Shown: positions 46,310 to 49,306 of the stretch, one piece after another
Numbering within the stretch: the first letter of the stretch is position 1
Layout: every line of letters begins with the position of its first letter
Source of the DNA: an archaeon
GTDB lineage: Archaea > Iainarchaeota > Iainarchaeia > Iainarchaeales > GCA-2688035
DNA: 64,000 nt
Assembly: GCA_035290965.1 (NCBI GenBank)
Contig: DATDTD010000071.1
Coordinates: 48,155 to 112,154, forward strand
Reading direction: 5' to 3'
Translations under genes and position numbers: made by a program
The notes under the pieces: model-generated
The model's input: only the letters and a program-made list of their open reading frames with translations
Databases searched by the model: none
What the model was told of the DNA's origin: nothing

Positions 46310-49306
46310 TCAGGCAGTTGAAAAATTCTGGTTCTGCGCGTCAAGCTCTTCTTTTAGTTTCAATCCCACTACGCTGCTTTTCTGCCTGTTCAAGGCAACT
46401 CCGATTACCTGGCTTGCGCTCTGAATCAAGGGGTCATTGTGCGTAATTACAAGGAACTGGGATTTCTTGCTCATTTCCTTTATGAGGCCGACCATTTTTG
46501 CCGAGTTCTGCTTGTCAAGCGCTGCATCTGCCTCGTCAAAAACATAAAAAGGCGCGGGCTCGTACAACTGGATTGAAAACAAAAATGCAAGTGCTGCAAG
46601 TGTTTTTTCCCCGCCACTCATTGAATCAATGTTTTTCAGGACAGTGCCCTTGTGCTTTGCCTCAATCAGCAGGCCGGCTTCAAGAGGATTTGAAGGATTG
46701 CTCAGTGACAGCTGTCCGGAACCGGAAAACAATTCAAGGAAAACCCTTGAAAAATTCTTGTTCAGCTCATTGAAACAATCCATAAAAAAGCTTGTCCTCT
46801 TGAATTCAATCTTCTGAATCAGGTCAAGGACTGCGGTTTTTTCCTCTCCAAGAGTGCCGAGCTTCTGCCTTACATCCACGACTTCCTTCTGCAGCTCTTC
46901 AAACGATTCAACAGCCTTCATGTTTATTGCGCCGAGCTCTGCAATTCTTTTTTCAATTTCAATCACGCGCCTCTGCAGCTGCTTTTCATCGGCAAAATCT
47001 TTCAGGCGCGGAGTTTCGGCATACTGGGCGAATTCCTCTCCCAAATCAGAAAGCCTTACTTCAAGCTTTGAGTTCTCAATCTTAAAATCGTTTGCCTGCT
47101 GTTCAGTGCGCCGAATTTTCTGCTGCAAAGAATTTTTCCTTTCAAAGGAGACCGAAAGCTTCTGGTCTGCAAGGCTTTTTTCCTCCAACAAGCGTGCGCT
47201 TGCCTTTTCGGATTTTTTCATTTCTTCCTGCAAAGCAAGGAATTCCTTTTCAAGCAGAAGCAGTTTTGCGTCTCCGTTCCCTGTTTCCTTCTGCATTTCA
47301 GCATTGAATTTTTTCAGCTGGGAAATCTCTTCTTCCAGAAAAGACTTTTCCTCCGAGCTTTTTTCATTGCCGTGCAGAAAAAGCGATTTTTTCTGCTCGA
47401 GCAAACCGAAACGCAGCTGGATTTCATTAATCGAATTTGCAAGCGAAGAATGCTTTTCAAAGCCTGTGCCTGCCCTGAACTGCCTTGCCTCGTTTTCCTT
47501 TGCGGATTTTTTCGCTTTTGCCGCAAGCAATTGTTCCTCGAGCTTTTTTGCATCGCGCTCCTTCTGCTCAAGGGAATTTGCCGCAAGGGCTCTGCGCAGC
47601 TTTGAGTTTTTTTCCTCAAGCAGGGAATGCTTCTGCCTTATTTCTGAAAGATTAAAAACATCTGATTCAAGCTCGCGCTTTTTTTCAAAAATATTTTCGA
47701 GCAGCAATTTTTTTTCTTCAAGCTTTTTTGCATCCCTTGAAAAAACACCCAGCTTTGAATTCAGCTCTGCAAGCAAATCCTGCTTTTTTTCCATAAGCGA
47801 TTTCTTTTTTTCTGCTGAGAGCTTTGAATCGCATACAGGGCAGCTTGCAATCTGCTTCTGGAGCTCCTTCACTGCCTTCTGGGCTTCAAGAATTCCAGCT
47901 TCAAGAGTCTTGCTTTCAAGAAGGTTTTTTTTGCTTTCCTCGAGCGCAAGGGCAAGCTCTGATTTCAAATCCTTGTGCTCCTGCAGAAGCACGTCAAGGC
48001 TTTTTTTCCTTGATTCCTTTCTTTCAAGCTCTGAGCGCAGCTTTTCAAGTTCCGAGAAAGACTCCTGCAATAACTGCTTTGAAAAATCTATTTCGCGCTT
48101 AATGGATGAGATTTCTGATTTTTTTTCAAAAAGCGATTTCTGGATTTTTGCCTCTTCATCCGCAAATGCGAGCGTTTCCTTTTCAAGCTGCTTCAGGAAC
48201 TGTTCCTGCCCCAATCCCTTTTCCTCAAGGATTTTTTTGTTCTGTTTGAGGGCTGACAATTGTTCCTGCAGTTCCGGCAGTTCCTTTTCAATGCCTGAAA
48301 GCTCTTTTTCGCGCGAATTTTTTTCATTCAGAAGAAGCTTTACTTTTTCGTTCAGGGAAAAAATCTTGGCATTGTTTTTTTCAAGCATGTGCTTTTTTGT
48401 TTCAAGCGACTGCTGCAAAAGCATTTTTTCGGATTTTTTTTCCTCTGCCTTTATCCCGAAGTTTGAAAAAGTGCGCTCGCTCGCGCTCAGGATCTGGCTG
48501 TTTAATTCCTCAATCGACTGCCGAAGCTGCCCTGTTTTTTCATCCTCCTCGAAAATCTTTTTCTGAAGGGAGTTCTGCTCTTCTTCAAGCGAAAAAATCC
48601 TGTCGGAATTTTCCTTTCGAGAGGAGGTTATTTTTTCCATTTCAAGGAAAAGCCCTGTTGCAGTTGCCTGTTTTTTTTCCTCGCGCAGCTTTTCGAATTC
48701 AAGCGCTGCCTGCCTGTCTTTTTCAAGGCTCTGAAGGTAGTTTTCCCTTTCGGAAAGCACAATGCCAGCGTCCTTTATTTTTGTTTCAACTCTTTCAAGG
48801 TTTTTCAGGGACTCGACTTTTTTTTCATCGAATTCATGCAGGCCCGCTAATTCGTCAATAATCTGGCGCCTTTCTTCTGGAGACATTTCTATTATTCTTG
48901 TTGCATCGCCCTGCACTACAATATTGTGCCCGTTGGGCTTTATTCCCATCTCAGAAAGGAGGGAGCTTATTTCATTGAGTGTTTTTCTCTGGTCGTTTAA
49001 TCTGTAAACGCTTTTTCCCTGCTTGTCAATCATTCTGCTTATTTCATAGCGCGCATCGTTGTGCTTTATTACCAGATCGACTTTTGCATAGTTTTCCATT
49101 GCAGTGTTGTTGACAAGTTCCGAAAGCTTTGCCGCGCGCAGTGTTTTCAAAGAGGTTGTTCCGAGCGCAAACATAAGCGCGTCGAGAATGTTTGTTTTTC
49201 CGCAGCCGTTTCCCCCCACAATCGCAGTAAAGCCGTCGGCAAACGGGATTTCGGCCTTGCGGAAGCTCTTGAAGTTTTTCAAAACCAGCTTTTGGAGCTT
49301 TACCAT
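46310..49306 (-). CDS. smc: SMC-family chromosome-condensation ATPase (998 aa) with CxxC motif at coiled-coil midpoint
   Basis: N-terminal FKSF…[19 protein letters not shown] (Walker A). C-terminal [36 protein letters not shown] (signature plus Walker B). CPVC at residues ~489-492 of 998. Confidence 0.8.
   Translation of the reverse strand: [998 protein letters not shown]

What the first reader, a model, noticed from the sequence alone, without database searches (positions are those of the whole stretch)
46310..49306. SMC-headed protein with a Rad50-like CxxC at the exact coiled-coil midpoint and no recognisable hinge
Head motifs are unambiguously SMC-type (FKSF…[65 protein letters not shown]). 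The protein is only 998 aa. Residues ~489-492 (CPVC) lie in the centre of continuous coiled-coil, where canonical SMC has a ~150-aa globular hinge. A zinc-hook dimerisation apex on an SMC head would be a hybrid SMC/Rad50 architecture. No Mre11 gene is adjacent. The upstream 215-aa hypothetical (49430-50077) could be a kleisin-like partner.
Basis: partly seen in the sequence, partly recalled or inferred. Interest (0 to 1): 0.6.

Follow-up and report, generated by a model that had tools for sequence, protein, structure and literature searches.

The report
Archaeal SMC with a zinc hook
This gene encodes the chromosome-organising SMC ATPase of a small DPANN archaeon, but the globular "hinge" that normally joins two SMC molecules has been replaced by a Rad50-style zinc hook; in the literature I could search, that design appears only as a laboratory-built chimera.

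Summary
ORF 46310-49306 (-) encodes a 998-aa protein with SMC-type ATPase heads, helical arms, no hinge, and one CxxC (CPVC 489-492) at the apex.

- **Hook identity.** C489, P490 and C492 are the only invariant arm columns in 93 homologs. An apex profile hits the P. furiosus Rad50 zinc-hook structures first (E = 4e-10). Pfam Rad50_zn_hook matches; SMC_hinge does not, although it scores 95-129 bits in other DPANN SMCs.
- **Orthology.** Heads score 548 bits on archaeal SMC, against 123 (Rad50) and 90 (ASRP). The clade nests among hinge-bearing Iainarchaeota/Micrarchaeota SMCs. It occupies the same locus (membrane protein, smc, convergent Lon_C) as hinge-bearing sisters. Arm length is kept to within about 15 residues per arm.
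- **Spread.** I counted 160 hook-bearing SMCs. A second hook lineage occurs in Nanoarchaeota. Short-armed and hook-less derivatives also exist.
The 215-aa ORF is not supported as a kleisin.
- **Open.** No ScpA is linked, so kleisin partnership is unresolved. Zinc binding and dimerisation are inferred, not shown.
- **Novelty.** I found no prior description. The nearest precedent is the engineered B. subtilis Smc(Zh) chimera. I rate it a new variant of a known kind.

The parts
46310..49306 (-). smc gene, hook type (998 aa plus stop codon)
   Evidence: ORF listing and translation. TIGR02169 548 bits. P. yayanosii Smc head 5xei 315 bits.
48797..49306 (-). N-terminal half of the ATPase head (residues 1-170), including Walker A GGNGCGKT (residues 31-38, nt 49193-49216) and Q-loop Q132
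   Evidence: invariant G31, N33, G36, K37, Q132. AF2 beta/alpha head.
47858..48796 (-). N-terminal coiled-coil arm (residues 171-483)
   Evidence: AF2 helices 157-195, 208-361, 368-443 and 447-483. Collinear with the N-arm of the hinge-bearing Micrarchaeota SMC P0150 up to its hinge boundary.
47753..47899 (-). Rad50_zn_hook-like region (residues 470-518)
   Evidence: Pfam PF04423, 23.8 bits in the full protein and 28.7 bits for the isolated segment. Profile A2 hits 1L8D at 4.4e-10 and 6ZFF at 1.6e-9.
47816..47857 (-). Apex loop [14 protein letters not shown] (residues 484-497). CPVC is residues 489-492, nt 47831-47842
   Evidence: Translation. Non-helical apex in AF2. C489, P490 and C492 invariant.
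46817..47815 (-). C-terminal coiled-coil arm (residues 498-830), including the conserved [15 protein letters not shown] segment (about residues 790-805)
   Evidence: AF2 helices 498-550, 553-575, 578-612, 616-760, 774-791 and 799-860. G792 and N795 invariant. Residues 742-985 align to P0150 912-1157.
46313..46816 (-). C-terminal half of the ATPase head (residues 831-998), with signature MSGGEKT (nt 46601-46621), Walker B [12 protein letters not shown] (nt 46514-46549) and H-loop H956
   Evidence: Structural match to Smc heads 5xns and 4i99, target TM 0.85-0.88.
50055..50870 (-). Conserved upstream neighbour: GPDPase_memb-like membrane protein (271 aa), same strand. Role relative to SMC unknown
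   Evidence: Pfam 3.3e-08. Immediately upstream of smc in 16 of 17 hook loci, in L018, and in hinge-type L021.
43961..46309 (+). Conserved convergent downstream neighbour: Lon_C-domain protein (782 aa). Used here as a synteny marker
   Evidence: Pfam Lon_C 2.4e-16. Convergent to smc in hook loci and in hinge-type L020, L021 and L024.
49430..50077 (-). 215-aa orphan ORF between the membrane-protein gene and smc.
   Evidence: No Pfam or NCBIfam family. No homolog in any fetched locus, and hhalign against ScpA gives probability 0.2%.

Best explanation
This is the lineage's orthologous SMC (the condensin-type Smc of Smc-ScpAB), from an Iainarchaeia (Diapherotrites, DPANN) archaeon. The ~150-aa globular hinge, plus roughly 15 residues of flanking coil on each side, has been replaced in place by a Rad50-type zinc hook.

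Shown:
- The heads are SMC-type with all ATPase motifs intact.
- The arms are of canonical length.
- There is no hinge.
- A strictly conserved CPxC sits at the hairpin apex, embedded in sequence that is profile-similar to Rad50 hooks.
- The gene sits at the same chromosomal position as hinge-bearing smc in sister lineages.

Inferred:
- Each protomer supplies only two Cys, so two protomers would jointly coordinate one Zn2+ through four Cys, as in Rad50. That gives a constitutive homodimer joined at the arm tips.
- ATP-driven head engagement and arm mechanics would then act on DNA as in Smc-ScpAB (DNA entrapment, loop extrusion and chromosome organisation), without any hinge-DNA contact.
- A kleisin partner is assumed by homology but was not found.
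For: - **Heads.** TIGR02169 SMC_prok_A scores 548 bits, against at most 123 for Rad50 models and 90 for ASRP. P. yayanosii and P. furiosus Smc heads score 258-315 bits, against about 60 for Rad50 heads. Foldseek target TM is 0.85-0.88 to Smc heads. Walker A, Q-loop, signature, Walker B (DE intact) and H-loop are invariant.
- **No hinge.** AF2 shows none. Pfam SMC_hinge is absent here but scores 95-129 bits in Aenigmatarchaeota and Micrarchaeota SMCs. A hinge HMM splits 343 sequences cleanly.
- **Hook.** C489, P490 and C492 are the only invariant arm columns. Profile A2 hits the Rad50 hooks 1L8D and 6ZFF at 4e-10 and 2e-9, with human RAD50 hook third and no SMC hinge. 24 of 28 apex segments match PF04423.
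- **Orthology.** The hook clade (NJ bootstrap 75-81) groups with hinge-bearing Iainarchaeota/Micrarchaeota SMCs (65-80). The membrane-protein, smc, Lon_C neighbourhood is shared with hinge-type L021, L020 and L024. None of the 80 genome loci pairs a hook SMC and a hinge SMC from one assembly.
- **Arm length.** The N-arm is collinear with P0150 up to its hinge. The C-terminal offset is 170-172 residues, against a length difference of 173.
- **Feasibility.** B. subtilis Smc with its hinge swapped for the P. furiosus Rad50 zinc hook supports normal growth (PMC5344682).
Against: - No ScpA or ScpB was found in the 64-kb window or within 10 kb of 17 hook-type loci, whereas ScpA abuts 46 of 66 hinge-type smc genes. 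The hinge-bearing Micrarchaeota sisters also lack an adjacent ScpA, so this is weak evidence against a kleisin.
- Whole genomes could not be searched, so a second, canonical SMC elsewhere in the genome is not strictly excluded.
- Zinc binding, dimerisation and DNA activity are untested.
- The apex fold search did not discriminate: 1L8D ranked 4th with TM about 0.78, but E was 0.15 and generic helical hairpins scored as well.
- The phylogeny is head-only neighbour-joining with moderate support, and one hinge-bearing protein (P0146) falls inside the hook clade.
Confidence: 0.75

Rival explanations
1. It is a kleisin-independent SMC derivative with a changed job. Having lost the hinge, and possibly ScpAB, it acts as a zinc-hook-bridged DNA tether. 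It may work with the tightly linked upstream membrane protein, for example anchoring or bridging the small chromosome at the membrane, rather than as a loop-extruding Smc-ScpAB ring.
For: - ScpA is adjacent to 0 of 17 hook loci and absent from the window. It is also not adjacent in the Nanoarchaeota hook lineage.
- A membrane protein lies immediately upstream on the same strand in 16 of 17 hook loci, with gaps of only a few to tens of bases.
- Hook-less, hinge-less derivatives nested in the clade suggest relaxed constraint on apex dimerisation.
Against: - The membrane-protein linkage also exists for hinge-type L021, so it predates the hook.
- Hinge-bearing Micrarchaeota sisters also lack an adjacent ScpA, so non-adjacency is a trait of the wider clade.
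- The coiled-coil segment next to the head is strongly conserved (K162, K163, E165, A166, L170, R187). From my own recollection of Smc-ScpA structures, this is where the kleisin N-domain binds; I did not test that here.
- Whole genomes could not be searched.
Confidence: 0.15
2. It is functionally a Rad50- or ASRP (ClsN/Sph)-like protein, that is, a DNA-repair or compartment-forming paralog that merely has SMC-like heads, and not the lineage's condensin.
For: It has a zinc hook, as Rad50 and ASRPs do (PMC9389158). NCBI's pipeline names most members only 'AAA family ATPase', because they fall below the SMC cut-off.
Against: - Rad50 models score at most 123 bits against cut-offs of 700-1087, and ASRP scores 90 against 300, while SMC scores 548.
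- The heads and the clade nest inside archaeal SMC.
- The gene is positionally orthologous to hinge-bearing smc.
- No Mre11 lies nearby.
- The arms have canonical SMC length.
Confidence: 0.06
3. The CPxC is not a zinc hook. It could be a redox-active disulfide or simply a conserved tight turn, and dimerisation happens elsewhere or not at all.
For: No metal-binding test was possible. The apex fold search was non-specific. Some clade members lack the motif entirely.
Against: Similarity to Rad50 hooks extends about 100 residues beyond CPxC as a profile (E = 4e-10, in register), and it recurs in a second lineage. The two Cys and the Pro are the only invariant arm positions. Two Cys per chain at a coiled-coil apex is the defining Rad50 arrangement (PF04423).
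Confidence: 0.04

Closest known systems
Canonical archaeal/bacterial Smc of the Smc-ScpAB condensin (e.g. Pyrococcus Smc; PDB 5xei, 5xns, 4i99)
   Same: The ATPase head sequence and fold are the same. All nucleotide-binding motifs are present. Arm length is equal to within about 15 residues per arm. The clade nests phylogenetically and shares the chromosomal position with hinge-bearing smc.
   Different: There is no hinge domain; a 14-residue CPxC apex replaces it. The protein falls below the curated SMC score cut-off (548 against 729). No linked ScpA was found.
Rad50/SbcC zinc hook (P. furiosus Rad50 hook; PDB 1L8D, 6ZFF; Pfam PF04423)
   Same: CPxC sits at the apex of an antiparallel coiled coil. 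The flanking sequence is profile-similar (E = 4e-10). There are two Cys per chain, implying intermolecular Zn coordination.
   Different: The heads are SMC-type, not Rad50-type. No Mre11 partner lies nearby. The residue after the second Cys is D/E-S rather than G-R.
Engineered B. subtilis Smc(Zh) chimera (Burmann et al. 2017, PMC5344682)
   Same: The architecture is identical: SMC heads and arms with the hinge replaced by a Rad50 zinc hook. The chimera supported normal growth and still needed correct arm geometry.
   Different: That chimera is a laboratory construct in a bacterium, whereas this is a natural, widespread archaeal gene family. Natural length classes (about 1000 aa and about 772-812 aa) also exist.
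Archaea-specific SMC-related proteins, ASRP (ClsN, Sph1/2; Yoshinaga et al. 2022, PMC9389158)
   Same: These are archaeal coiled-coil ABC ATPases with a zinc-hook motif.
   Different: The ASRP model scores only 90 bits against a cut-off of 300. ASRPs are a separate family from SMC, whereas this protein nests inside SMC.
'Hinge-less' SMC of marine Actinobacteria (Sussfeld et al. 2025, PMC12153180)
   Same: These are natural SMC-clade proteins that lack the hinge.
   Different: They are bacterial and are explicitly reported to lack the CXXC motif. The protein here is archaeal and has a conserved hook. The hook-less 905-949-aa derivatives nested in this clade resemble them more closely.

Membership tests
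SMC (Smc of Smc-ScpAB) | SMC-type ABC ATPase head with Walker A, Q-loop, signature, Walker B/D-loop and H-loop | tested here: met
   SMC_N 1.8e-46. Pyrococcus Smc heads 258-315 bits. Target TM 0.85-0.88. Motif residues invariant.
SMC (Smc of Smc-ScpAB) | Long antiparallel coiled-coil arms of canonical length | tested here: met
   AF2 helices from about 157 to 860. Collinear with P0150 arms; length difference 173 aa, close to hinge plus about 15 residues per side.
SMC (Smc of Smc-ScpAB) | Globular hinge dimerisation domain (Pfam PF06470) | tested here: not met
   No hit and no globular domain in AF2. Positive controls score 95-129 bits in other DPANN SMCs. Hinge HMM negative in 160 hook proteins.
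SMC (Smc of Smc-ScpAB) | Curated full-length equivalog score (TIGR02169, at least 729 bits) | tested here: not met
   548.5 bits in 3 stretches. The shortfall matches the missing hinge.
SMC (Smc of Smc-ScpAB) | Kleisin (ScpA) and ScpB partners | tested here: inconclusive
   None in the window or within 10 kb of 17 hook loci. Hinge-bearing sisters also lack an adjacent ScpA. Whole genomes could not be searched.
SMC (Smc of Smc-ScpAB) | Orthology: branches within archaeal SMC and occupies the smc locus | tested here: met
   NJ head tree, bootstrap 75-81 for the clade and 65-80 with hinge-bearing sisters. Flanking genes shared with hinge-type L020, L021 and L024.
Rad50/SbcC | CxxC zinc hook at the coiled-coil apex (PF04423) | tested here: met
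   23.8 and 28.7 bits against cut-off 24.3. 24 of 28 members match. Profile hits 1L8D at 4.4e-10.
Rad50/SbcC | Rad50-type head (NCBIfam Rad50 equivalogs, cut-offs 700-1087 bits) | tested here: not met
   Best score 122.9 bits. Rad50 heads in PDB about 60 bits, against 315 for Smc.
Rad50/SbcC | Mre11/SbcD nuclease partner, usually adjacent | tested here: not met
   No Metallophos/Mre11 gene in the window or in annotated loci L001-L005, L086 and L087. The rest of the genome was not searchable.
Rad50/SbcC | One Zn2+ coordinated by four Cys from two chains | not testable with these tools
   Only two conserved Cys per chain. No multimer or metal modelling was available.
ASRP (ClsN/Sph) | NF045487 equivalog score of at least 300 bits | tested here: not met
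   89.9 bits, covering the C-terminal head only.
Hinge-less SMC of marine Actinobacteria | SMC clade, no hinge and no CXXC motif (PMC12153180) | tested here: not met
   The hinge is absent, but CPxC is strictly conserved and the lineage is archaeal.

The most novel reading that the evidence does not exclude
Natural selection has carried out the 'hinge-for-zinc-hook' swap in a bona fide chromosomal SMC at least once, in Iainarchaeia, and probably a second time independently in Nanoarchaeota. Further steps followed: arm shortening to about 800 aa and complete loss of any apex dimeriser. If these proteins are the only SMCs of their genomes, the hinge and every hinge-DNA contact invoked in loop-extrusion models would be dispensable for SMC function in living lineages. 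DPANN archaea would then offer a graded natural series for dissecting what the apex of an SMC must do: hinge, mini-hinge, hook, short hook, nothing.
Probability: 0.5. Interest if true: 0.8.

Novelty: new variant of a known kind. Interest (0 to 1): 0.66.

Why it matters
Current definitions separate SMC (hinge plus kleisin) from Rad50 (zinc hook plus Mre11) (PMC10586767). This family crosses that line in nature.

- **Mechanism.** It gives independent, evolutionary support to the engineered result that an SMC can work with an unrelated apex dimeriser, provided arm geometry is kept (PMC5344682). That bears on the debate over whether hinge-DNA binding or hinge opening is part of the core SMC mechanism.
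- **Annotation.** Most members are labelled only 'AAA family ATPase' because they miss the curated SMC threshold. Surveys keyed on the hinge, or on that threshold, would miss these members.
- **Experimental handles.** The natural length classes and the hook-less derivatives offer ready-made variants for testing the arm-length periodicity and the dimerisation requirements of SMC motors.

Tried and rejected
- An exact look-up of the window protein in the contig index found nothing. I used the 68-40% identical homologs instead.
- The Foldseek search with the isolated apex model did not discriminate. All E values were at least 0.13, and helical hairpins such as PspA/Vipp1 and LSD1 towers scored like 1L8D. 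I rely on sequence-profile evidence for the hook.
- Kleisin hypothesis for the 215-aa ORF: no family hit, no homolog in any locus, and hhalign probability 0.2% against ScpA. Rejected.
- ScpA search: a Pfam-verified ScpA profile built from genes downstream of hinge-type smc found nothing in the window (best E about 5) or in the hook loci.
- Ten unannotated window ORFs scanned at E up to 1 gave no ScpA, ScpB or Mre11 signal.
- Assembly or annotation artefact (a deleted hinge): rejected, because 160 hook-bearing sequences come from independent assemblies and sources.
- Literature: no paper holds SMC, zinc hook and DPANN together. Related searches returned only Rad50, ASRP and engineered-chimera papers, plus the CXXC-less actinobacterial hinge-less SMC. 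The library is not exhaustive.
- I ran no further search on ScpA, because the results cannot be restricted to the relevant genomes.
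Full report
**Observation.** The minus-strand ORF 46310-49306 encodes a 998-aa protein. The protein has four cysteines and one CxxC, CPVC at 489-492 (nt 47831-47842). Pfam reports SMC_N (1.8e-46) and a Rad50_zn_hook match at residues 470-518. That match scores 23.8 bits in the full protein and 28.7 bits as an isolated segment, against a cut-off of 24.3. There is no SMC_hinge hit.

**Heads.** NCBIfam scores the protein at 548 bits on the archaeal SMC equivalog TIGR02169. This is below the 729-bit cut-off, and the alignment is broken into three stretches. 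Rad50 equivalogs score at most 123 bits and the archaea-specific SMC-related protein model (ASRP) scores 90. Against the PDB, Pyrococcus Smc heads score 258-315 bits and Rad50 heads about 60. The AlphaFold2 model superposes on Smc head crystal structures with target TM 0.85-0.88. Walker A, Q-loop, signature, Walker B (catalytic Glu intact) and H-loop residues are invariant across 93 homologs. The heads are therefore SMC-type and look catalytically competent.

**Is a divergent hinge hidden at the centre?** The evidence says no.
- AlphaFold2 with a 93-sequence alignment (mean pLDDT 78) predicts helix from about residue 157 to 860. The only interruptions are short breaks and a 14-residue non-helical apex (484-497) that contains CPVC.
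- A separate model of residues 440-545 (pLDDT 86.7) is a plain helix-loop-helix hairpin.
- As a positive control, Pfam SMC_hinge scores 95-129 bits in other DPANN SMCs fetched here: Aenigmatarchaeota-type 'mini' SMCs of 807-838 aa, and Micrarchaeota SMCs of 1121-1133 aa. It is absent from Iainarchaeal proteins, which match Rad50_zn_hook instead.
- A hinge HMM built from those controls, together with a hook HMM, classified 343 collected sequences as 159 hinge, 160 hook and 24 neither.

**Is the CxxC meaningful?**
- In 93 full-length homologs (35-68% identity), C489, P490 and C492 are invariant. They are the only invariant columns anywhere in the arms.
- Among the 160 hook-bearing sequences the motif is always CP[VTILF]C.
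- A profile of 28 apex segments (residues 440-545) searched against all PDB sequences finds the P. furiosus Rad50 zinc-hook structures 1L8D and 6ZFF first (E = 4.4e-10 and 1.6e-9). Human RAD50 hook is third, unrelated coiled coils follow only at E above 0.04, and no SMC hinge appears.
- 24 of the 28 segments individually match PF04423.
- The fold-level test was uninformative. 1L8D ranks fourth with TM about 0.78 over its whole length, but all E values are at least 0.13 and generic helical hairpins score as well.
- Each chain offers only two conserved Cys, so a tetrahedral site needs two chains, as in Rad50. That step is an inference; no metal or multimer modelling was available.

**Paralog or the lineage's own SMC?** Four lines point to orthologous replacement.
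1. The SMC model is by far the best-scoring family.
2. In a neighbour-joining tree of head columns (329 positions, 172-174 sequences, 100 bootstraps), the hook clade has 75-81% support. It groups with hinge-bearing SMCs of Iainarchaeota and Micrarchaeota (65-80%), away from euryarchaeal and bacterial SMCs. Head identity to those sisters is 50-52%, against 41% to Haloferax, Methanococcoides or bacterial SMCs.
3. The gene neighbourhood is shared. A GPDPase_memb-like membrane protein lies immediately upstream on the same strand in 16 of 17 hook loci, and also in the hinge-bearing 'Ca. Iainarchaeum' locus L021. A convergent Lon_C protein lies downstream in the hook loci and in hinge-type L020, L021 and L024.
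4. Among the 80 best genome loci, no assembly contributes both a hook and a hinge SMC. This is weak evidence, because the scan is pattern-based and truncated.

Pairwise alignment to the Micrarchaeota SMC P0150 (1171 aa, hinge at about 504-650) shows the N-arm collinear up to the hinge boundary. The C-terminal region aligns with an offset of 170-172 residues. So the hinge, plus roughly 15 residues of coil on each side, was exchanged for the hook, and arm length was otherwise preserved.

**Partners.**
- The window contains no ScpA, ScpB, Mre11, Rad50 or second SMC.
- I built a ScpA profile from the gene family that sits directly downstream of hinge-type smc in the fetched loci, and confirmed it as PF02616. 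It is adjacent to 46 of 66 hinge-type smc genes, to none of 17 hook-type genes, and is absent from the window.
- The hinge-bearing Micrarchaeota/Iainarchaeota sisters also lack an adjacent ScpA, as do two Nanoarchaeota hook loci.
- Non-adjacency is therefore a trait of the wider clade and does not show kleisin loss.
- Whole genomes could not be read with these tools, so the kleisin question stays open.
Its probability of similarity to ScpA is 0.2%. It is best treated as a lineage-specific orphan.

**Wider picture.**
- The family is large. There are 811 clusters at E below 1e-10 in the 90%-identity database, and the best 120 are all about 985-1025 aa or fragments or intein-bearing forms. About 40 clusters at 50% identity rank ahead of the first canonical-length SMC.
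- Named members come from Ca. Iainarchaeum/ainarchaeum, Diapherotrites, one Micrarchaeota-labelled MAG, and unclassified archaea.
- Short-armed hook proteins of 772-812 aa have the hook at residues 376-395.
- Proteins of 905-949 aa have neither hinge nor hook, and nine of them (plus L018) nest inside the hook clade in the head tree.
- One hinge-bearing protein, P0146, also falls inside the clade. This is unexplained.
- Two basal proteins, P0175 and P0203, carry a 65-106-residue apex insert of unknown nature.
- A separate group of about 953 aa includes a protein labelled 'Nanoarchaeota archaeon' (MBU2104839.1, named SMC by NCBI). It also has CP[ILFT]C at the apex, and its apex profile again hits the Rad50 hooks first (E = 4.7e-7). 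It branches apart from the Iainarchaeal clade, among hinge-bearing SMCs. This suggests, but does not prove, a second independent origin.

**Comparison with what is known.** Current reviews define SMC by hinge plus kleisin and Rad50 by zinc hook plus Mre11 (PMC10586767).
- Zinc hooks are also known in ASRPs (ClsN/Sph; PMC9389158) and many LmuB proteins. Those are separate families, and this protein fails the ASRP threshold.
- A 'hinge-less' SMC clade was reported from marine Actinobacteria, but it explicitly lacks CXXC (PMC12153180).
- The exact architecture seen here was built artificially. Burmann et al. replaced the B. subtilis Smc hinge with the P. furiosus Rad50 zinc hook. The chimera supported normal growth while still depending on correct arm geometry (PMC5344682). 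The reciprocal swap in Rad50 is reported in the title of PMC6969161.
- I found no paper describing a natural hook-bearing SMC. The searchable library is incomplete, so prior description cannot be excluded.

**Verdict.** The best explanation is an in-place hinge-to-zinc-hook replacement in the orthologous smc gene of a DPANN lineage. It would give a homodimer joined at the arm tips by a shared zinc ion and otherwise working like Smc.
- Architecture and orthology: confidence about 0.9.
- Whole statement, including condensin-like function: confidence about 0.75.
- Not demonstrated: zinc binding, dimerisation, the kleisin partner and the cellular function.

I classify it as a new variant of a known kind, of clear interest to the SMC field.

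Noticed in passing
window 52600-64000: This is a low-GC island (30-37%, against about 42% elsewhere). It carries a Type IIG Eco57I/MmeI-like restriction-modification fusion (53127-55730 +), a DDE_Tnp_1 transposase (55943-57175 +) and a 1315-aa CARDB/Ig-like surface protein (58685-62632 -). It is probably a mobile or horizontally acquired region.
   Followed up: partly
window 2928-8439 (-): A 404-aa LAGLIDADG_3 ORF (6140-7354) sits between carA (7351-8439) and carB (open frame 6098-2931), in a different reading frame. It may be a free-standing homing endonuclease or an intein remnant in the carbamoyl-phosphate synthase operon.
   Followed up: partly
window 836-2167 (+) and 17300-37200: There is a RuBisCO large-subunit homolog (I did not determine its form). 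There is also a nearly complete purine-biosynthesis gene cluster, which I would not have expected in a DPANN genome of supposedly reduced metabolism.
   Followed up: no
window 50055-50870 (-); L003-L016, L018, L021: A GPDPase_memb/DUF7847-like membrane protein lies immediately upstream of smc on the same strand, with gaps of a few to tens of bases. This holds in 16 of 17 hook loci, in hook-less L018 and in hinge-type L021, suggesting a conserved operon of unknown meaning.
   Followed up: partly
L018:9992-12781; P0109, P0120, P0122, P0129, P0131, P0134, P0138, P0143-P0145: These SMC proteins of 905-949 aa have neither hinge nor CxxC hook. L018 and nine of them nest inside the hook clade in the head tree. 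How they dimerise at the apex, if they do, is unexplained.
   Followed up: partly
L014:4949-7318, L015:7152-9581; P0126, P0147: These are short-armed hook SMCs (772-812 aa, hook at residues 376-395, PF04423-positive). Each arm is about 95-110 residues shorter than in the 1000-aa class, giving a natural 'mini-Smc(Zh)' series.
   Followed up: partly
L022, L023, L025, L028, L034, L036, L048, L059: Aenigmatarchaeota-type 'mini' SMCs of 807-841 aa have a genuine hinge (110-129 bits). Their arms are about 150 residues shorter than canonical. In at least seven of the eight loci a ScpA gene follows immediately.
   Followed up: partly
P0232, P0249, P0250, P0255 (L086:8001-10862, L087:8001-10865): A second hook-bearing SMC group of about 953 aa (one member labelled Nanoarchaeota) has CP[ILFT]C followed by a conserved (E/D)H, as in P. 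furiosus Rad50. It branches apart from the Iainarchaeal hook clade, has RNase HII upstream, and has no adjacent ScpA.
   Followed up: partly
P0146; P0175, P0203: P0146 (1012 aa) has a true hinge (96 bits) yet falls inside the hook clade in the NJ tree. P0175 and P0203 (1076 and 1084 aa), basal to the clade, carry a 65-106-residue apex insert that is neither hinge nor hook. They could be intermediates, reversions or tree artefacts.
   Followed up: partly
L011 (1563 aa), L021 (1781 aa), P0112, P0114: Several DPANN smc genes, both hook-type and hinge-type, carry intein or LAGLIDADG insertions. One of them is the protein of archaeon GW2011_AR10.
   Followed up: no
L012 (JAFCBY010000019.1): A hook-type archaeal smc locus with typical Iainarchaeal flanking genes sits in an assembly labelled 'Candidatus Falkowbacteria bacterium' (a CPR bacterium). 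It is most likely a mis-binned contig.
   Followed up: no
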